Part shown: one piece after another, positions 430 to 8,189 of the stretch
Layout: each line of letters starts with the position of its first letter
Position numbering within the stretch: position 1 is the first letter of the stretch
From: Escherichia coli
Lineage (GTDB): Bacteria > Pseudomonadota > Gammaproteobacteria > Enterobacterales > Enterobacteriaceae
Reading direction: 5' to 3' (one strand)
DNA length: 8,189 nucleotides
NCBI RefSeq assembly: GCF_003334305.1
Contig: NZ_QOWS01000044.1
The notes under the pieces: generated by a model
The model's input: only the letters and a program-made list of their open reading frames with translations
Databases searched by the model: none
What the model was told of the DNA's origin: nothing
Position numbers and translations under genes: made by a program

Positions 430-806
<377 letters not shown>

Positions 807-813
807 GGCGCGC

Positions 814-842
814 AGTATAGAGGGTTTGCGCGCCCTTGTCAC
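814..842 (-). promoter_or_regulatory. rnpB sigma70 promoter (-35 GTGACA at 837-842, 17-bp spacer, -10 TATACT at 814-819, start near 806)
   Basis: On the minus strand: GTGACA, a 17-nt spacer, TATACT, then 7 nt to the M1 RNA 5' end. The -35 hexamer overlaps the garK stop codon (839-841). Confidence 0.6.
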
Positions 843-1984
843 CCCGCGTTGCGCATTCCAATCGCCAGTGTCGCGGCGATATTACGTGAAGCACGGCAGA
901 TATTGTCATAAGCCCCGCGGAATGCTTCGTCCAACGTACCTATGCTGGTCAATACGCTGAAGACCGCATCGATGCCATGCTGATGTACAACGCCAACATC
1001 ATCGGTCAGGCTACCCGCAATGCCAATCACCGGTTTATGGTACTTCTTCGCCACGTTTGCAACGCCAATCGGTACCTTGCCGTGAATACTCTGGCTGTCA
1101 ATACGCCCTTCACCGGTGATCACCAGCGTACAATCGTGAATATGTTCCTCCAGATTCAGCGCCGTAGTGACGATTTCAATACCACTTTTCAGTTCCGCAC
1201 CAAGAAACGCCATCAGCGCCGCACCCATACCGCCCGCAGCTCCTGCGCCGGGGACATCTTTCACATCAACATGCAGCGCTTTTTTAATGACATCGGCATA
1301 GTGAGAGAGGTTATTGTCCAGCTCAACAATCATCGCTTCACTGGCTCCCTTTTGTGGGCCAAAGATGCGCGATGCGCCGTTATCGCCCACCAGCGGATTG
1401 GTGACATCACAAGCGACGCGAATGACGCAATCTTTTAAGCGCGGATCGAGGCCGGAAATATCAATATCATTCAGAGTATTAAGACTACCGCCGCCAAAAC
1501 CAATTTCATTGCCGTTGGCGTCGCATAATTTCGCCCCCAGCGCCTGTACCATGCCTGCGCCGCCATCATTTGTAGCGCTACCGCCAATGCCGATAATAAT
1601 GTTTGTCGCGCCGCTCTCCAGCGCCTGCAGGATTAACTCGCCTGTGCCGCGTGAAGTGGTCACGAGTGGATCGCGTTTTTCCGCAGGTACCAGCTCCAGC
1701 CCACTGGCCGCCGCCATTTCAATAAACGCGGTTTTGCCATCGCCGGAGATCCCCCAACTGGCATTCACTTTCTCGCCCAGCGGCCCTGTAACCCAGGCGT
1801 GACGTTCAGAACCCTGGGTGGCTGCAATCATCGCTTCCACCGTTCCTTCGCCACCGTCGGCAACCGGAATAGAAACGTACTGTGCATCAGGAAAAATTTC
1901 CCGAAATCCTTTTTCTATCGCCTGCGCAACCTCGCTGGCAGATAAACTTTCTTTATAAGAGTCTGGGGCGATTACGATTTTCAT
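839..1984 (-). CDS. garK: Glycerate kinase (glycerate 2-kinase), 381 aa
   Basis: The ORF track gives 839..2065, but the conserved N-terminus MKIVIAPDSYKESLSA begins at the internal ATG (complement of 1982-1984). That gives 381 aa, the expected size. Glycerate kinase family motifs (GGEGT, GxGGSATNDGG) are present. It is last in the gar operon order. Confidence 0.9.
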   Translation of the reverse strand: MKIVIAPDSYKESLSASEVAQAIEKGFREIFPDAQYVSIPVADGGEGTVEAMIAATQGSERHAWVTGPLGEKVNASWGISGDGKTAFIEMAAASGLELVPAEKRDPLVTTSRGTGELILQALESGATNIIIGIGGSATNDGGAGMVQALGAKLCDANGNEIGFGGGSLNTLNDIDISGLDPRLKDCVIRVACDVTNPLVGDNGASRIFGPQKGASEAMIVELDNNLSHYADVIKKALHVDVKDVPGAGAAGGMGAALMAFLGAELKSGIEIVTTALNLEEHIHDCTLVITGEGRIDSQSIHGKVPIGVANVAKKYHKPVIGIAGSLTDDVGVVHQHGIDAVFSVLTSIGTLDEAFRGAYDNICRASRNIAATLAIGMRNAG

Positions 1985-2080
1985 ACCTATGCCTGTTACC
2001 ACATGACGCCGGAGGGCGTTTCTCTTATTCGGCCTGGATTCCAGGCCCGGATTGCAATACGCCATCCGGGCACGACGTCA

Positions 2081-3000: not shown

Positions 3001-3771
3001 TTATTTTTTAAAGGTATCAGCCAGTTTCTGAGTGGCAGAGCGGAAGACGCCAAGATCGCTGCCGACAGCCACAAACGTCGCGCCCCATTCCAGATAACGA
3101 CGCGCATCGGCTTCGACCGGCGCGAGAATACCGCTGGGTTTGCCGTGCGCACTGGCACGGTTAAAAATGTGCTGAATTGCTTTTTGTACATCCGGGTGCG
3201 AGGCATTGCCGAGATGGCCTAATGCCGCAGCCAGATCGCTGGGGCCGACGAAGATACCGTCTACACCTTCGGTAGCGGCAATGGCATCGACGTTATCTAC
3301 GCCCTGCTGACTTTCTATCTGGACCAGAATGGTGATGTTCTTGTTCGACTGAGCGAAATAATCCGCCACGGTGCCAAACATATTGGCGCGGTGAGAAACG
3401 GAGACGCCGCGAATGCCTTCCGGTGGGTAACGGGTTGATGCCACCGCCTGCTCTGCTTCCTCTTTTGTTTCTACAAAAGGAATCAGGAAGTTATAGAAAC
3501 CGATATCCAGAAGACGCTTAATAATTACCGGCTCGTTGGTCGGCACTCGCACTACTGGCGCGCTGGCGCTGCCTTTCAGGGCCATTAACTGCGGAATAAA
3601 CGTGGAGATATCGTTTGGCGCATGTTCGCCATCCAGCACCAGCCAGTCAAACCCAGCCAAACCAAGAACTTCAGTGCTAATCGGGTTAGAGAGTGCTGAC
3701 CAGCAACCAATTTGTACCTGTTTCGCAGCCAGTGCGGCTTTGAATTTATTCGGGAAAACATCGTTATTCAT
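3001..3771 (-). CDS. garL: 5-keto-4-deoxy-D-glucarate (2-dehydro-3-deoxyglucarate) aldolase, 256 aa
   Basis: 256-aa ORF starting [24 protein letters not shown], of the HpcH/HpaI aldolase family. AAGG Shine-Dalgarno about 9 nt upstream. Sits 15 bp downstream of the garP stop. Confidence 0.92.
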
Positions 3772-3786
3772 CGCTTATACCTTTGC

Positions 3787-5121
3787 TTATTTCTGCAATT
3801 CCATACGTTTAATGTCGCCAACTACGAAGAGGTAGCAGACCATCGCCATCAGCGCTGAACATCCCACGAAAACCAGTGCTGCATTGAAGGAGTGCAGTTC
3901 ACTTACCAGGTAGCCAATCACCAGTGGAGTGACAATGGAGGCAACATTGCCAAAGACGTTAAAGACGCCGCCACAGAGGCCAACAATCTCTTTCGGCGCG
4001 GTGTCAGAAATCACCGGCCAGCCCAGAGCACCAAATCCTTTGCCAAAAAAAGCCAGCGCCATCAGCATGACCACCAGCGTGGTGTTGTTGGTGTAGTTAC
4101 ATAAGATGATGGTGGAAGCCAGCAACATTCCCAGCACAATCGGTAGCTTACGTGCCAGGGTCAGGGATAAACCGCGTTTGATCAGATAATCCGAGAAGAC
4201 ACCTCCCAGCACGCCGCCCGCAAAACCACACAGTGCCGGAATCGAGGCGACCAGACCCACTTTCAGAATCGACATGCCTTTTTCCTGCACCAGATAAATC
4301 GGGAACCAGGTGAGGAAGAACCAGGTGATGGTGTTGATAAAATATTGTCCGAAAAATACGCCCAACATCATGCGGTTAGAGAGCAATTGCTTGATGTAAT
4401 GCAGTTTGGGACCGCTTGCTGCCGCGCTGCCCGGCTTTTTGTGGTCCATATCGACCACCGCGCCATTTTCAGAGATAAACTTCAGCTCTTCCGCAGACAT
4501 ACGTGGGTGATCTGTCGGGTTATGAATCAATTTGATCCACAGCGCCGTCAGCACAAAACCAATCACCCCCATAACGGTAAAGACGTGCTCCCAGCCCCAG
4601 GCGAAAGTCAGCCAGCCAAGCAGAGGCGAAAAGAGCGCCAGCGAGAAATATTGCGCCGAGTTAAAGATGGCGGAGGCAGTACCACGTTCTTTCGTCGGGA
4701 ACCAGGCGGCGACAATACGGGCGTTCGCCGGGAATGATGGCGCTTCCGAGAAGCCGAGCATAAAGCGCATAAAGAACATGGAGATCCCTGCCCAGGCCAG
4801 CGGGAACATATCAACAAAGCCTTGCAGGAAAGTGAATAGCGACCAGAAAAAGAGGCTATAGGTATAAACTTTTTTCGAGCCAAACTTATCAAGCAGCCAG
4901 CCGCCGGGGATTTGCATCAGCAAGTAGGCCCAGCCAAAAGCAGAAAAGATGTAACCCATCGAAACCGCACTTAACTGCAACTCTTTTGCCACTTCGGTAC
5001 CAGCAATAGACAGCGTTGCACGATCGGCGTAGTTAACGGCGGTAACAATAAAAATAATCAGTAATATTAAATAGCGGGTATGCACGCCTTTCTTTTTTTC
5101 GTCAACGGTGTCCAGAATCAT
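3787..5121 (-). CDS. garP: Galactarate/glucarate/glycerate transporter, MFS superfamily, 444 aa
   Basis: 444-aa ORF, highly hydrophobic with multiple predicted transmembrane helices typical of an MFS anion:cation symporter. GAGG Shine-Dalgarno about 7 nt upstream of the ATG. First gene of the minus-strand operon. Confidence 0.92.
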   Translation of the reverse strand: MILDTVDEKKKGVHTRYLILLIIFIVTAVNYADRATLSIAGTEVAKELQLSAVSMGYIFSAFGWAYLLMQIPGGWLLDKFGSKKVYTYSLFFWSLFTFLQGFVDMFPLAWAGISMFFMRFMLGFSEAPSFPANARIVAAWFPTKERGTASAIFNSAQYFSLALFSPLLGWLTFAWGWEHVFTVMGVIGFVLTALWIKLIHNPTDHPRMSAEELKFISENGAVVDMDHKKPGSAAASGPKLHYIKQLLSNRMMLGVFFGQYFINTITWFFLTWFPIYLVQEKGMSILKVGLVASIPALCGFAGGVLGGVFSDYLIKRGLSLTLARKLPIVLGMLLASTIILCNYTNNTTLVVMLMALAFFGKGFGALGWPVISDTAPKEIVGLCGGVFNVFGNVASIVTPLVIGYLVSELHSFNAALVFVGCSALMAMVCYLFVVGDIKRMELQK

Positions 5122-5495
5122 TTTATTTACCTCGGGTACTTATGCTGATTTTTATTATTATGGAGAAGGTGTTATTTATGAGTTTCATTTATGCCGTAAC
5201 GGCAATGAACTCGGGAATTAGTATAAGCAGCGCGAGAATAATAATCATTGTGCAAATGCTAATTTAATTAATACTATTTAAATATTATTTTGAGCATATG
5301 CACATAAGGTTGCGCGCTAAAGCACAGATTTGCGCTTTACCTTGCCGGGCGGCACTGCAATCCCTGAAATGATTGACATTGATCACATTTCTGCGTTTAA
5401 ACTCCTGACATTCTTATTTCACCCAATGAAGTCATTTATTTTTAAATGAGACCAGGTCCTCATTTTAATAACCCCTGGCTGGAGAATATTGCACA
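5122..5495. promoter_or_regulatory. Divergent garP / garD intergenic control region (AT-rich)
   Basis: 374-bp non-coding spacer between divergent starts. It holds a very AT-rich tract (about 5240-5300), a TTGACA at 5373-5378, and several palindromes. The gar genes are known to be controlled by the CdaR (SdaR) activator, but I cannot place its sites with certainty. Confidence 0.6.
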
Positions 5496-7067
5496 ATGGC
5501 CAACATCGAAATCAGACAAGAAACGCCAACTGCGTTTTATATAAAAGTTCACGACACAGATAATGTGGCAATTATTGTTAATGATAATGGCCTGAAAGCA
5601 GGAACGCGTTTTCCGGATGGGCTGGAATTAATTGAACATATTCCCCAGGGGCATAAAGTCGCATTGCTGGACATTCCGGCTAATGGTGAAATTATTCGTT
5701 ATGGCGAAGTGATTGGTTACGCCGTGCGTGCAATCCCACGCGGAAGCTGGATCGACGAATCAATGGTTGTACTACCGGAAGCGCCGCCGTTACACACGCT
5801 GCCACTGGCAACCAAAGTCCCGGCCCCCTTACCGCCGCTGGAAGGATACACCTTTGAGGGCTATCGCAATGCCGATGGCAGCGTGGGCACCAAAAACCTG
5901 CTCGGCATCACCACCAGCGTCCACTGTGTGGCAGGCGTGGTGGACTATGTAGTAAAAATCATTGAACGCGATCTGCTACCGAAATACCCGAACGTCGATG
6001 GCGTGGTGGGGCTGAATCATTTGTACGGCTGTGGCGTGGCGATTAACGCACCGGCGGCAGTTGTGCCTATTCGTACCATCCACAATATTTCGCTGAACCC
6101 TAACTTTGGCGGCGAAGTAATGGTGATTGGTCTGGGTTGTGAAAAGTTGCAGCCTGAGCGCCTGCTGGTCGGCACGGATGATGTGCAAGCTATTCCAGTA
6201 GAAAGCGCCAGCATTGTCAGTTTGCAGGATGAAAAGCATGTCGGTTTTCAGTCCATGGTCGAGGATATTTTGCAGGTCGCCGAACGCCATCTACAAAAAC
6301 TGAATCAACGTCAGCGAGAAACCTGTCCGGCTTCAGAACTGGTTGTCGGCATGCAGTGCGGTGGCAGCGATGCCTTTTCTGGCGTAACGGCAAACCCGGC
6401 GGTTGGCTATGCGTCTGATCTACTGGTGCGCTGCGGCGCAACGGTGATGTTCTCAGAAGTCACGGAAGTGCGTGACGCGATCCATCTGCTGACACCACGC
6501 GCAGTGAACGAAGAGGTCGGCAAACGGCTGCTGGAGGAGATGGAGTGGTACGATAACTATCTCAATATGGGAAAAACCGACCGCAGCGCCAACCCTTCGC
6601 CGGGCAACAAGAAAGGCGGTCTGGCAAACGTGGTAGAGAAGGCACTCGGCTCCATTGCTAAATCGGGTAAAAGCGCAATTGTTGAAGTGCTGTCGCCCGG
6701 TCAACGCCCGACTAAACGCGGATTAATTTACGCCGCGACGCCAGCCAGCGATTTTGTCTGTGGCACGCAACAGGTGGCTTCGGGTATCACCGTGCAAGTG
6801 TTTACGACCGGTCGTGGTACGCCGTACGGCCTGATGGCGGTACCCGTCATTAAAATGGCGACCCGCACCGAGCTGGCGAACCGCTGGTTTGATTTAATGG
6901 ATATTAACGCGGGCACTATCGCCACCGGCGAAGAAACCATTGAAGAGGTGGGCTGGAAGTTGTTCCACTTTATTCTCGACGTCGCCAGCGGGAAGAAGAA
7001 AACCTTCTCGGATCAATGGGGGCTGCATAACCAGCTGGCAGTGTTTAACCCGGCACCGGTGACCTGA
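5496..7067 (+). CDS. garD: Galactarate dehydratase, 523 aa
   Basis: 523-aa ORF starting [26 protein letters not shown], with an SAF-like N-terminal domain and altronate/galactarate dehydratase family body. GGAGA Shine-Dalgarno at 5480-5484. Confidence 0.93.
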
Positions 7068-7090
7068 TTTCTTTTGGAACGTCCCTCGCA

Positions 7091-7117
7091 AAACATGGCC
7101 TTAGTGCCATGTTTTTA
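7091..7117 (+). terminator. Intrinsic terminator downstream of garD
   Basis: aaacatggc (7091-7099), loop cttagt, gccatgttt (7106-7114): a perfect 9-bp stem followed by a T-run, 24 nt after the garD stop. Confidence 0.7.
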
Positions 7118-7151
7118 TTGTTTAAAGCCCCCACGTCCATTAATAATGCAT

Positions 7152-7179
7152 TTGCATTACCTTAGTTCAAGCTTATAAT
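7152..7179 (+). promoter_or_regulatory. Putative prlF-yhaV promoter (-35 TTGCAT, 16-bp spacer, -10 TATAAT)
   Basis: Consensus TATAAT at 7174-7179 and TTGCAT at 7152-7157. Overlaps the palindrome aatgcatt (7145-7152) and the tgcatt direct repeat. Shine-Dalgarno AAGGA at 7202-7206. Confidence 0.5.
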
Positions 7180-7215
7180 TTGAGCAGAAAACAGGCTGTA
7201 AAAGGACAGTGAATC

Positions 7216-7551
7216 ATGCCCGCTAATGCTCGCTCTCACGCTGTACTGACCACTGAATCAAAGGTCACGATACGCGGACAAACAACTATCCCCGCGCCAG
7301 TGCGTGAGGCCTTAAAACTGAAGCCAGGCCAGGACAGCATTCATTACGAAATTCTGCCTGGTGGGCAAGTCTTTATGTGCCGACTGGGAGATGAACAGGA
7401 GGATCATACTATGAATGCATTTTTGCGTTTTCTGGATGCAGATATCCAGAACAACCCGCAAAAAACTCGTCCATTCAACATTCAACAAGGAAAGAAACTT
7501 GTCGCTGGCATGGACGTCAACATTGATGATGAGATTGGCGACGACGAATAA
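7216..7551 (+). CDS. prlF: Type II antitoxin PrlF (SohA), AbrB/SpoVT-like DNA-binding fold, 111 aa
   Basis: 111-aa ORF starting MPANARSHAVLTTESKVTIRGQTTIPAPVREALKL (swapped-hairpin AbrB-type N-terminus) with an acidic C-terminal tail DDEIGDDE. Its stop overlaps the start of the downstream toxin gene (TAATG). Confidence 0.9.
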   Translation: MPANARSHAVLTTESKVTIRGQTTIPAPVREALKLKPGQDSIHYEILPGGQVFMCRLGDEQEDHTMNAFLRFLDADIQNNPQKTRPFNIQQGKKLVAGMDVNIDDEIGDDE

Positions 7552-8015
7552 TGGATTTTCCACAAAGGGTTAATGGTTGGGCGCTATATGCTCATCCCTG
7601 TTTTCAGGAAACCTACGACGCTTTAGTTGCCGAAGTCGAGACATTAAAGGGAAAAGATCCTGAAAATTATCAGAGAAAAGCCGCCACAAAGTTATTGGCG
7701 GTAGTCCATAAAGTGATTGAGGAGCATATCACGGTCAATCCATCATCACCGGCATTCCGTCATGGCAAGTCGTTAGGCTCTGGGAAAAATAAAGACTGGT
7801 CACGGGTAAAATTTGGTGCTGGTCGTTATCGTCTCTTCTTTCGTTATAGTGAAAAAGAGAAAGTCATCATTCTGGGATGGATGAACGATGAAAACACTCT
7901 GCGCACCTACGGTAAAAAAACAGATGCCTATACCGTATTCAGCAAAATGTTAAAAAGAGGACATCCTCCTGCCGACTGGGAAAGCCTCACCCAAGAGACA
8001 GAAGAAAACCATTGA
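7551..8015 (+). CDS. yhaV: Type II toxin YhaV, RelE/ParE-superfamily ribonuclease, 154 aa
   Basis: 154-aa ORF starting MDFPQRVNGWALYAHPCFQETYDALV, translationally coupled to prlF by a 1-nt overlap. Matches the E. coli YhaV toxin as I recall it. Confidence 0.9.
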   Translation: MDFPQRVNGWALYAHPCFQETYDALVAEVETLKGKDPENYQRKAATKLLAVVHKVIEEHITVNPSSPAFRHGKSLGSGKNKDWSRVKFGAGRYRLFFRYSEKEKVIILGWMNDENTLRTYGKKTDAYTVFSKMLKRGHPPADWESLTQETEENH

Positions 8016-8069
8016 TGGTGTTCACAATGCCCGCCGAACGTATTCGTGTTGACCAGCGGGCACCCTTTC

Positions 8070-8189
8070 TCACTCCCCGACCAGAATCACTTCAACCCCA
8101 GCCTTTCGCAGTCCTTCCAGACTATCCGCAGGAATGCCTTCATCAACAATGATCATGTCGATACGTTGAGTATCAATGATCTTATGTAA
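8070..8189 (-). CDS. agaR: 3' end (C-terminal 39 codons plus stop) of a DeoR-family transcriptional repressor; partial, continues beyond the window
   Basis: Minus-strand frame reads ...[39 protein letters not shown] then stop (complement of 8070-8072). This resembles a DeoR-type sugar-binding domain C-terminus. Convergent with yhaV, as agaR is in E. coli K-12. The symbol is assigned from genomic context. Confidence 0.5.

What the first reader, a model, noticed from the sequence alone, without database searches (positions are those of the whole stretch)
7143..8015. prlF-yhaV toxin-antitoxin module inserted between sugar-acid catabolic genes, with a palindromic candidate operator in its promoter
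Seen directly: two small co-oriented ORFs with a TAATG stop/start overlap; the upstream one has an AbrB-like N-terminus and an acidic tail, the downstream one is a small basic protein. This matches the known PrlF (SohA) / YhaV type II TA pair. The promoter region carries the perfect palindrome aatgcatt (7145-7152) abutting a tgcatt direct repeat that overlaps the -35, a plausible autorepression operator for the complex. By eye the module looks more AT-rich than the flanking gar genes, suggesting horizontal origin; that needs computing.
Basis: partly seen in the sequence, partly recalled or inferred. Interest (0 to 1): 0.5.

Follow-up and report, generated by a model that had tools for sequence, protein, structure and literature searches.

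The report
E. coli prlF-yhaV toxin-antitoxin operon

Summary
The window is E. coli chromosome, 100% identical to a RefSeq genome. It reads rnpB, garKRLP, garD, prlF, yhaV and the 3' end of agaR. The two ORFs (7216-7551 and 7551-8015, TAATG overlap at 7549-7553) match the curated PrlF model (170 bits, cut-off 125) and Pfam Toxin_YhaV (7e-54). A PrlF profile hits AbrB/SpoVT N-domains in the PDB. The AF2 model of YhaV hits RelE/ParE-superfamily toxins.

The symmetric element is the 16-bp inverted repeat TAATGCA-tt-TGCATTA (7144-7159), which overlaps the -35. Within E. coli alone the repeat is only marginal. Across species it is strong. The same repeat lies upstream of prlF in every Enterobacterales homologue. 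A related GTAAGGAA..TTCCTTAC palindrome lies there in Alphaproteobacteria. In all, 72 of 78 loci carry the shared frame, against 0.6 expected.

The module is AT-richer than its neighbours (GC3 0.43 vs 0.57-0.60). Salmonella, Citrobacter and Klebsiella have garD directly next to agaR, so insertion is supported. The right neighbour is an amino-sugar regulator, not a sugar-acid gene.

Toxicity, the heterohexamer and binding to a palindromic promoter sequence were published in 2007. Verdict: already known, low interest.

The parts
7090..7115 (+). Hairpin AAAACATGGC-cttagt-GCCATGTTTT followed by a T-rich tail. It is an intrinsic-terminator-like element after garD. It may have arrived with the module.
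   Evidence: Terminator scan. Inverted repeat I1. RNA fold -12.4 kcal/mol, z = -3.97. Conserved in E. albertii and Pseudocitrobacter. Absent from the empty sites of Salmonella, Citrobacter and Klebsiella. A second copy lies after yhaV in Pseudocitrobacter locus L004.
7144..7159 (.). Candidate PrlF-YhaV operator: a perfect 7+2+7 inverted repeat, TAATGCA-tt-TGCATTA.
   Evidence: Inverted repeat I2. It is the only match in the window. It sits in a block of 21 invariant columns (7141-7161) whose flanks have diverged in Pseudocitrobacter. AATGCA-NN-TGCATT lies upstream of prlF in all 10 Enterobacterales loci and nowhere else in the 87 fetched loci. The wider frame is present in 72 of 78 loci, against 0.58 in shuffles. 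Published work describes binding to a palindromic promoter sequence (PMC7781912).
7151..7156 (+). -35 hexamer TTTGCA, inside the right arm of the operator. TTGCAT at 7152-7157 with a 16-nt spacer is an alternative reading.
   Evidence: Promoter scan, 10 of 12 matches. The TTGCAT alternative is read by eye from the sequence. In Cedecea locus L005 TTGCAT, 17 nt and TATACT can also be read by eye.
7174..7179 (+). -10 hexamer TATAAT.
   Evidence: Promoter scan. Invariant in the 4-way alignment.
7202..7206 (+). Shine-Dalgarno-like AAGGA, 9 nt before the prlF ATG.
   Evidence: Read directly from the sequence. This is an inference.
7216..7551 (+). prlF (sohA), the antitoxin and DNA-binding subunit, 111 aa. 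It has an AbrB/SpoVT-type N-domain and an acidic C-terminal half.
   Evidence: NF007429 at 170 bits against a cut-off of 125, and TIGR01439 at 27.1 bits. PF15937 at 7e-42, and PF04014 at 0.0023. A profile hits PDB AbrB at 2e-4 and SpoVT at 1e-3. RefSeq annotation. Charge profile.
7549..7553 (+). TAATG stop/start overlap, implying translational coupling of yhaV to prlF.
   Evidence: Sequence. Polar effects of the prlF1 frameshift on yhaV are reported (PMC12107188).
7551..8015 (+). yhaV, a RelE/ParE-superfamily endoribonuclease toxin, 154 aa.
   Evidence: PF11663 at 7e-54. AF2 model with pLDDT 85. Foldseek top hits are PfiT, RelE, RelE1, HigB2, YoeB and ParE2. Invariant residues include R85, K87, R92 and R98. 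RefSeq annotation.
8028..8062 (.). GC-rich hairpin (GCCCGC...GCGGGC) in the 54-bp spacer between the convergent yhaV and agaR genes. It has no clear T-run and its role is uncertain.
   Evidence: RNA folds: + strand z = -0.96, - strand z = -1.8. The terminator scan did not call it.
8070..8189 (-). 3' end of agaR, the right boundary of the inserted segment.
   Evidence: RefSeq annotation. In the empty sites of other genera agaR lies 59-110 bp from garD.

Best explanation
The region is the chromosomal prlF-yhaV type II toxin-antitoxin operon of Escherichia coli.

The operon is transcribed from a sigma-70 promoter (-35 at 7151-7156, -10 at 7174-7179). PrlF is translated first. YhaV translation is coupled to it through the TAATG overlap.

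YhaV is a RelE-superfamily endoribonuclease that cleaves mRNA on the ribosome and arrests growth. PrlF neutralises it. In my reading, PrlF's C-terminal acidic half binds the toxin and its N-terminal AbrB-type swapped-hairpin domain dimerises and binds DNA.

The published PrlF2-YhaV4 complex, with the toxin acting as co-repressor, binds the 16-bp inverted repeat TAATGCA-tt-TGCATTA. This repeat overlaps the -35, so binding excludes RNA polymerase and the operon represses itself. I infer that each 7-bp arm is read by one PrlF dimer. That would explain why two hexamers assemble cooperatively on the palindrome. Loss of PrlF would free YhaV and derepress the operon. Proteolysis, plausibly by Lon, is the likely route but has not been shown.

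The roughly 1-kb module is an old insertion between garD and agaR. It is now nearly fixed in E. coli.

Shown here: the identity of both genes, the fold assignments, the promoter and operator anatomy and its conservation, the compositional deviation, and the empty sites. Taken from the literature: toxicity, neutralisation, stoichiometry, DNA binding and autorepression. Inferred: the exact operator, the half-site reading and the protease.
For: - Identity: the DNA is 100% identical to E. coli. The segment matches in 5356 of 5426 complete genomes, and 5120 of them cover at least 80% of it; in all 11 full-length hits listed it is annotated prlF/yhaV.
- Family models: NF007429, PF15937 and PF11663 all match.
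- Folds: the PrlF N-domain profile matches solved AbrB and SpoVT structures. The YhaV AF2 model matches RelE/ParE-fold toxins.
- Gene pairing: a prlF homologue lies directly upstream of the yhaV homologue in 79 of 80 species loci.
- Operator conservation: the repeat is identical in Pseudocitrobacter despite diverged flanks. It is a 24-bp palindrome in Cedecea. It is present as two adjacent units in Pantoea, Pectobacterium, Pseudescherichia and UBA7338. A related GTAAGGAA-N0-2-TTCCTTAC lies just after a TTGACA -35 in Alphaproteobacteria. The shared frame TAAK-N8-MTTA is in 72 of 78 loci, against 0.58 in shuffles and 6 hits in 570 kb of background.
- Covariation: PrlF hairpin residues track the half-site type.
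- Literature: a PrlF2-YhaV4 hexamer binds palindromic promoter DNA cooperatively, and YhaV is ribosome-dependent (PMC7781912). The operon is autorepressed and derepressed by the prlF1 frameshift (PMC12107188). The toxin acts as co-repressor (PMC8138530). YhaV is listed as a BECR/RelE family (PMC11980606).
- Insertion: empty garD|agaR sites exist in three genera. GC3 is 0.43 against 0.57-0.60. The family occurs on 328 plasmid records, 175 of them conjugative.
Against: - I could not read Schmidt et al. 2007. That the published palindromic site is exactly 7144-7159 is therefore inferred, not verified.
- Within E. coli alone the inverted repeat is only marginally unusual (P = 0.08).
- The covariation between PrlF residues and half-sites is confounded by phylogeny, since it rests on two clades.
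- The monomer AF2 model of PrlF gave no informative structural match.
- Older work described YhaV as ribosome-independent in vitro (PMC5408214).
- The protease and the physiological trigger are unknown. One review table lists both the target and the protease as unknown (PMC3021852).
- No mobility gene or target-site duplication flanks the module in E. coli.
Confidence: 0.93

Rival explanations
1. The inverted repeat at 7144-7159 is not the PrlF-YhaV operator. It could be a chance AT-rich palindrome, or it could be conserved only because it forms the -35 region or binds another regulator. CpxR is a candidate, since it has been reported to lower prlF transcription.
For: Within E. coli alone the repeat is not significant (P = 0.08, and P = 0.40 for the 8-bp palindrome). 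prlF is reported as CpxR-regulated (PMC9600279). The -35 overlaps the repeat, so promoter function alone constrains part of it. I could not read the primary paper to confirm the coordinates.
Against: The full two-fold symmetry is conserved, not just a -35. The repeat occurs upstream of every Enterobacterales prlF homologue and nowhere else in the 87 loci. It is duplicated in tandem in five genera. In Alphaproteobacteria it is replaced by a different palindrome in the same frame, placed next to a separate TTGACA -35 rather than over it. The half-site type tracks PrlF DNA-binding residues. Published work says the complex binds a palindrome in this promoter, and this is the largest one between the garD terminator and prlF.
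Confidence: 0.06
2. The module was not inserted. It was present between garD and agaR in the common ancestor of Enterobacteriaceae and was lost independently from Salmonella, Citrobacter and Klebsiella. Its low GC would reflect only the usual composition of small, weakly expressed genes.
For: The module sits next to garD in E. coli, E. albertii and Pseudocitrobacter. It is nearly fixed in E. coli. No integrase, transposase or direct repeat flanks it in E. coli. Deletion does occur: an IS1-mediated deletion removed it in strain EC23HZZ201. Some flanking aga genes also have high rare-codon fractions (agaF 9%).
Against: Three genera have a compact convergent garD|agaR junction of 59-110 bp with no remnant of the module. 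GC3 is well below that of both flanking operons. The nearest non-Escherichia, non-Pseudocitrobacter toxin homologues are only 56-66% identical and lie in unrelated contexts without garD or agaR. GarD itself is 91-94% identical across these genera. The family is common on conjugative plasmids.
Confidence: 0.08
3. The pair is a genuine toxin-antitoxin module by biochemistry, but its selected role in the cell is something other than stress-induced growth arrest. Two candidates are anti-phage abortive infection and modulation of Lon protease activity and envelope or protein-export stress, the phenotype by which prlF/sohA was first found.
For: The prlF1 frameshift and PrlF overproduction activate Lon. 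They suppress degP and LamB-LacZ jamming phenotypes and are selected in evolution experiments. A prlF deletion changes protamine survival. The physiological trigger of YhaV is listed as unknown.
Against: Neither protein matches PADLOC-DB. Only one phage record encodes a relative. No defence-island neighbours are present: the flanks are catabolic operons. The Lon link is mechanistically unexplained in the literature read.
Confidence: 0.15

Closest known systems
E. coli K-12 PrlF(SohA)-YhaV type II toxin-antitoxin system (Schmidt et al. 2007, J Mol Biol 372:894)
   Same: It is the same locus. The DNA is 100% identical to RefSeq E. coli genomes, where the two genes are annotated prlF and yhaV. 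The protein families, gene order, overlap and promoter palindrome all agree with the published descriptions.
   Different: Nothing differs at the level of the element. I add three comparative points. The palindrome is placed at 7144-7159. The operator frame is conserved across the family. Empty garD|agaR sites exist in three other genera.
MazE-MazF and AbrB/SpoVT swapped-hairpin DNA-binding proteins
   Same: The PrlF N-domain matches AbrB and SpoVT N-domains by profile and, weakly, the MazE Pfam model. Like MazE, it pairs a DNA-binding N-domain with an acidic toxin-binding tail.
   Different: The partner toxin has a RelE fold, not a MazF/CcdB fold. The published stoichiometry is PrlF2-YhaV4, which differs from the MazF2-MazE2-MazF2 arrangement I recall from general knowledge.
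RelB-RelE and other RelE/ParE (BECR-fold) toxin modules (HigBA, YefM-YoeB, DinJ-YafQ, PfiAT)
   Same: The YhaV model aligns to PfiT, RelE, HigB2, YoeB and ParE2. YhaV is reported to cleave mRNA in a ribosome-dependent way. The antitoxin-first operon is autorepressed.
   Different: YhaV is about 60 residues longer. In the AF2 model two N-terminal strands and a helical hairpin (H16-35, H44-60) precede the main three-stranded sheet (E84-113). It gives no sequence-level hit to any solved structure. Its antitoxin is AbrB-type rather than RHH, Phd or HTH.

Membership tests
PrlF-YhaV type II toxin-antitoxin module | Two small co-oriented genes, antitoxin first, with abutting or overlapping stop and start codons | tested here: met
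   ORFs at 7216-7551 and 7551-8015, with TAATG at 7549-7553. The prlF homologue lies directly upstream of the toxin in 79 of 80 species loci.
PrlF-YhaV type II toxin-antitoxin module | The antitoxin matches the PrlF family model above the curated threshold | tested here: met
   NCBIfam NF007429 (equivalog) at 170 bits against a cut-off of 125, full length. Pfam PF15937 at 7.2e-42.
PrlF-YhaV type II toxin-antitoxin module | The toxin matches the YhaV family model | tested here: met
   Pfam PF11663 Toxin_YhaV at 7.3e-54, residues 12-150 against model positions 1-137 of 138. No NCBIfam model matched.
PrlF-YhaV type II toxin-antitoxin module | The toxin arrests growth and the antitoxin neutralises it by direct binding | not testable with these tools
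   Taken from the literature only: Schmidt 2007 as cited in PMC7781912, PMC5408214 and PMC3021852.
PrlF-YhaV type II toxin-antitoxin module | The complex binds an operator in its own promoter and represses transcription | not testable with these tools
   Binding and repression come from the literature. Indirect support here: a conserved inverted repeat overlaps the -35.
RelE/ParE (BECR-fold) toxin superfamily | The RelE-like alpha/beta fold (antiparallel sheet packed against helices) | tested here: met
   AF2 model with pLDDT 84.9 and pTM 0.77. The Foldseek PDB hits at ranks 1-39 are all RelE/ParE-type toxins: PfiT at 1.2e-4, RelE 4fxh at 3e-3, then RelE1, HigB2, YoeB and ParE2, with target-normalised TM up to 0.77. 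This rests on a predicted structure, not a solved one.
RelE/ParE (BECR-fold) toxin superfamily | Conserved basic and aromatic catalytic residues | tested here: inconclusive
   R85, K87, R92, R98, Y120 and Y127 are invariant, and R94 and Y99 nearly so, in 54 homologues. The literature says replacing two conserved arginines abolishes activity. I did not map which residues those are.
AbrB/MazE/SpoVT swapped-hairpin DNA-binding domain | Sequence-profile similarity of the N-terminal ~50 residues to the domain | tested here: met
   The PrlF family profile hits the PDB at AbrB-family 5itj, 5itm and 2l66 (E about 2e-4) and SpoVT 2ro5 and 2w1t (about 1e-3), over profile positions 8-55. A single sequence is weaker: TIGR01439 at 27.1 bits is just under its cut-off of 28.3, and PF04014 scores E = 0.0023.
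AbrB/MazE/SpoVT swapped-hairpin DNA-binding domain | Interleaved-dimer beta fold | tested here: inconclusive
   The monomer AF2 model (pLDDT 78, pTM 0.44) shows strands at 11-16, 41-46 and 52-57, but Foldseek found no match below E = 0.5. A monomer model cannot show the swapped dimer.
Horizontally acquired insertion (genomic islet) | An empty site in related genomes with the same flanking genes | tested here: met
   garD and agaR are convergent and 59-110 bp apart in Salmonella enterica (L083, L084), Citrobacter braakii (L085) and Klebsiella michiganensis (L087).
Horizontally acquired insertion (genomic islet) | Composition deviating from the flanks | tested here: met
   GC is 45.5% against 50.6-53.7%. 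GC3 is 0.43 against 0.57 for gar and 0.60 for aga (p = 2e-5 and 4e-7). Rare codons are 8-10% against 3-5% in the gar genes and 3-9% in the aga genes.
Horizontally acquired insertion (genomic islet) | Mobility genes or flanking repeats that mark the ends | tested here: not met
   E. coli has no integrase or transposase and no flanking repeat. Only Pseudocitrobacter L004 has a copy of the same hairpin on each side. The mechanism of insertion is unknown.

The most novel reading that the evidence does not exclude
The operator architecture is a property of the whole PrlF family. It is a 16-18-bp palindrome in the fixed frame (G)TAA-N10-TTA(C). Its inner half-site bases changed from AAGGAA (Alphaproteobacteria) to AATGCA (Enterobacterales), together with changes in the PrlF DNA-reading hairpin (K20/K27 to R20 with no K27). 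Natural hybrid sites of the form GTAATGCnnTTTCCTTAC exist. If this has not been described, it offers a compact natural series for working out how an AbrB-type swapped-hairpin domain reads sequence. Separately, the hairpin that brackets the module in Pseudocitrobacter could mark the ends of the segment that moved.
Probability: 0.3. Interest if true: 0.3.

Novelty: already known. Interest (0 to 1): 0.1.

Why it matters
It matters little as a discovery. prlF-yhaV is a textbook E. coli K-12 toxin-antitoxin pair. Its toxicity, complex stoichiometry and autorepression through a palindromic promoter site were published in 2007, and RefSeq annotates both genes.

The check has three uses:

- It shows that the first-stage reader can recognise a TA module and its operator by eye.
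- It corrects two details: the true 16-bp symmetry and the identity of the right-hand neighbour.
- It adds comparative support. The operator frame is conserved across roughly 80 species, and clean empty sites support insertion. These results could guide mutagenesis of the operator or of the PrlF DNA-reading residues.

Tried and rejected
1. I tried to read the primary paper (Schmidt 2007) by PMC id and PubMed id, and Snyder & Silhavy 1992 by PMC id. None is held, so the published operator coordinates could not be checked. A full-text search for the operator sequence found only an unrelated paper.
2. Single-sequence searches of both proteins against PDB sequences found nothing meaningful. The YhaV profile also found nothing. 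Only the PrlF profile worked.
3. A fold search with the PrlF monomer model gave only noise. This is expected for an intertwined-dimer fold with pTM 0.44.
4. I considered that the E. coli genome lacking most of the region (hit H12) might be an ancestral empty site. It is an IS1-mediated deletion running from just after the garD terminator to yraI, so I rejected it as evidence for insertion.
5. I looked for a second operator unit next to 7144-7159, as seen in Pantoea and Pectobacterium. None is visible in E. coli.
6. I considered an anti-phage defence classification. There is no PADLOC match and only one phage record with a relative.
7. I considered the yhaV-agaR spacer hairpin as a bidirectional terminator. 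Its fold z-scores are weak (-0.96 and -1.8) and it lacks a T-run, so I left it uncertain.
8. I did not compute a codon adaptation index, because no reference set of highly expressed genes was available offline. I used GC3 and a rare-codon fraction instead.
Full report
**What is in the window.** The 1.1 kb from the garD stop codon to the end of the window is 100% identical to E. coli strain 120899. It matches in 5356 of 5426 complete E. coli genomes, and 5120 of them cover at least 80% of it. The RefSeq annotation of that genome, transferred to window coordinates, gives the following order:

- rnpB at 430-806, minus strand (also Rfam RF00010 at 318.6 bits)
- garK at 839-1984, garR at 2081-2971, garL at 3001-3771 and garP at 3787-5121, all minus strand
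- garD at 5496-7067, plus strand
- prlF at 7216-7551 and yhaV at 7551-8015, plus strand
- the last 120 nt of agaR at 8070-8189, minus strand

The module therefore lies between the galactarate dehydratase gene and the repressor of the N-acetylgalactosamine (aga) operon. It does not lie between two sugar-acid genes.

**Check of the observation.** TAA at 7549-7551 and ATG at 7551-7553 form TAATG. PrlF has a basic N-half (pI 9.5) and an acidic C-half (pI 4.3, with 7 D/E in the last 20 residues). YhaV has pI 9.1. The palindrome aatgcatt is at 7145-7152, and the TGCATT repeat is at 7147-7152 and 7153-7158. The best sigma-70-like site in the region is TTTGCA at 7151-7156, then 17 nt, then TATAAT at 7174-7179. 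It matches 10 of 12 positions and overlaps the repeat. Each arm contains the self-complementary TGCA, and that produces both the 8-bp palindrome and the apparent direct repeat.

**Is it more than chance?** Within E. coli alone, hardly. An 8-bp perfect palindrome appears in 40% of dinucleotide shuffles of the 100-nt promoter region. Arms of at least 7 nt appear in 8% of shuffles. Over the whole window, 0.04 matches to the 16-mer with up to 2 mismatches are expected and one is seen. Comparison with other genomes gives the weight.

**Protein identities.**

- PrlF matches the NCBIfam equivalog NF007429 at 170 bits (cut-off 125) and Pfam PF15937 at 7e-42. It gives weak hits to the AbrB (TIGR01439, 27.1 bits against 28.3) and MazE (PF04014, E = 0.0023) models over residues 15-39.
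- A profile built from 25 PrlF homologues hits solved AbrB-family N-domains (5itj, 5itm and 2l66, E about 2e-4) and SpoVT (about 1e-3).
- YhaV matches Pfam PF11663 at 7e-54. It has no sequence-level relative in the PDB.
- An AF2 model of YhaV from 54 homologues has pLDDT 84.9 and pTM 0.77. Its best PDB matches are all RelE/ParE-fold toxins: PfiT, RelE, Mycobacterium tuberculosis RelE1/2, HigB2, YoeB and ParE2.
- In 54 homologues R85, K87, R92, R98, Y120 and Y127 are invariant. Reviews state that replacing two conserved arginines abolishes activity.
- The monomer model of PrlF gave no useful fold match.

**Comparative evidence for the operator.** A scan of one genome per species found relatives of YhaV in 501 species, and I kept 80 loci. 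In 79 of them a prlF homologue lies immediately upstream. The exception lacks upstream sequence.

In a 4-way alignment of the garD-prlF spacer (E. coli, an E. coli clade representative, E. albertii and a Pseudocitrobacter MAG), the longest invariant run is 21 columns. It corresponds to window 7141-7161 and contains the repeat. The -10 (TATAATTT, 7174-7181) and most of the garD hairpin (two substitutions in Pseudocitrobacter) are also conserved. The sequence between these blocks has diverged in Pseudocitrobacter, whose PrlF is only 75% identical.

More distant Enterobacterales keep the same element:

- Cedecea has ATGGTAATGCAATTGCATTACCAT.
- Pantoea (two species), Pectobacterium, Pseudescherichia and MAG UBA7338 carry two adjacent AATGCA-NN-TGCATT units.
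- The pattern AATGCA-NN-TGCATT occurs 13 times in the 87 fetched loci, always upstream of prlF in the 10 Enterobacterales loci.

Alphaproteobacterial loci instead carry GTAAGGAA-N0-2-TTCCTTAC immediately after a TTGACA -35. Hybrids such as GTAATGCGATTTCCTTAC also occur. The shared frame TAAK-N8-MTTA is found within 200 nt upstream of prlF in 72 of 78 loci. Shuffles give a mean of 0.58 loci (maximum 4), and the rest of the loci give 6 hits in 570 kb. The PrlF hairpin sequence tracks the half-site. The form xR[G/S/H]QTT[I/L]P[A/S/T] goes with AATGCA, and xKGQTTIPK goes with AAGGAA. This correlation is confounded by clade.

**Fit with the literature.** Reviews citing Schmidt et al. 2007 report several points:

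- PrlF and YhaV form a PrlF2-YhaV4 heterohexamer. Two hexamers assemble cooperatively on a palindromic sequence in the promoter upstream of prlF.
- YhaV binds the 50S subunit and cleaves mRNA in a frame-dependent way (PMC7781912).
- The operon is one polycistronic mRNA repressed by the complex. The 7-bp duplication allele prlF1 derepresses it and is polar on yhaV (PMC12107188).
- The toxin is described as a co-repressor (PMC8138530).
- YhaV is one of the 13 Pfam BECR/RelE families (PMC11980606).

I could not obtain the primary paper. That the published palindrome equals 7144-7159 is therefore an inference. It is the largest palindrome between the garD hairpin and the prlF start. One PrlF dimer per 7-bp arm would account for the two-hexamer stoichiometry, and this too is my inference.

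**Composition and origin.** The module is 45.5% GC, against 50.6-53.7% for the five gar genes. GC3 is 0.46 for prlF and 0.41 for yhaV, against 0.54-0.62 for gar genes and 0.54-0.65 for aga genes. Pooled GC3 is 0.43 against 0.57 (p = 2e-5) and 0.60 (p = 4e-7). Rare codons make up 8-10%, against 3-5% in the gar genes and 3-9% in the aga genes.

Using GarD orthologues as anchors, I found garD directly followed by convergent agaR and kbaZ in three genera. The spacers are 110, 59 and 60 bp in Salmonella enterica, Citrobacter braakii and Klebsiella michiganensis respectively. These are clean empty sites. Their spacers are unrelated to each other and to the E. coli sequence, so the ends of the insertion cannot be fixed to the base.

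The module is next to garD in E. albertii and Pseudocitrobacter as well, so the insertion is old. YhaV-family toxins occur on 328 plasmid records, 175 of them predicted conjugative, mostly at under 60% identity. Homologues in other Enterobacterales lie in unrelated contexts. The one E. coli genome examined that lacks most of the region (hit H12, among those with under 80% coverage) lost it through an IS1-mediated deletion. It is not an ancestral state.

**Verdict.** The element is already known and annotated. The comparative operator series and the empty sites are modest additions. No PADLOC model matches either protein. Only one phage record encodes a relative. Nothing here points to an unrecognised function.

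Noticed in passing
L004 3540-3561 and 4480-4501; window 7090-7115: In the Pseudocitrobacter MAG the prlF-yhaV pair is bracketed by two copies of the same palindromic hairpin, (A)ACATGGCCTTAGGGCCATGT. One copy lies after garD and one after yhaV. E. coli keeps only the upstream copy, which scores as the garD terminator. The empty sites of Salmonella, Citrobacter and Klebsiella have other hairpins, so this one may have arrived with the module. The mechanism is unexplained.
   Followed up: partly
L007, L008, L012, L025, L038 (upstream of prlF homologues): Five Enterobacterales genera carry two adjacent 14-16-bp operator units (AATGCA-NN-TGCATT, 2-3 nt, AATGCA-NN-TGCATT). E. coli, Pseudocitrobacter and Cedecea have one unit. 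This may reflect different repressor stoichiometry.
   Followed up: partly
L009-L082 (Alphaproteobacteria and others), 17-60 nt upstream of prlF homologues: The palindrome GTAAGGAA-N0-2-TTCCTTAC sits directly after a consensus TTGACA. Hybrid sites of the form GTAATGCnnTTTCCTTAC also occur. PrlF hairpin residues K20/K27 against R20 track the half-site type.
   Followed up: partly
window 430-806 (-): A complete rnpB gene (RNase P RNA, class A, RF00010 at 318.6 bits) lies just upstream of garK. The listed ORFs overlapping it (432-911 and others) are spurious.
   Followed up: yes
window 5122-5495: The divergent garP-garD intergenic region is strongly AT-rich (36% GC). It is the lowest-GC stretch of the window and is presumably the shared regulatory region of the gar operons. 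I did not analyse it.
   Followed up: no
L002 (E. coli EC23HZZ201) 6064-6878: An IS1A element sits 64 bp after the garD stop and is followed directly by yraI. The prlF-yhaV pair, the aga cluster and further genes up to yraI are therefore deleted in this strain.
   Followed up: partly
L086 versus L087 (Klebsiella michiganensis): Two contigs encoding the identical GarD protein have different right flanks. One has pfkB and a DeoR regulator, the other agaR and kbaZ. The position downstream of garD is thus a variable spot. Pseudocitrobacter L004 has the pfkB-type flank after its prlF-yhaV.
   Followed up: partly
window 8028-8062: A GC-rich hairpin (GCCCGC...GCGGGC) lies in the 54-bp spacer between the convergent yhaV and agaR genes. 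Its fold is only weakly better than shuffles (z = -0.96 on the + strand, -1.8 on the - strand) and it has no T-run.
   Followed up: partly
window 839-2065 (-): The longest ORF for garK (408 aa, ATG at 2065) is 27 codons longer than the RefSeq-annotated garK (381 aa, start at 1984).
   Followed up: no
plasmid hits H26, H27 (E. coli plasmids CP055750.1 and NZ_CP010123.1): Some E. coli plasmids carry a second, distant YhaV-family toxin that is about 46% identical to the chromosomal one. I did not examine possible cross-talk with the chromosomal PrlF.
   Followed up: no
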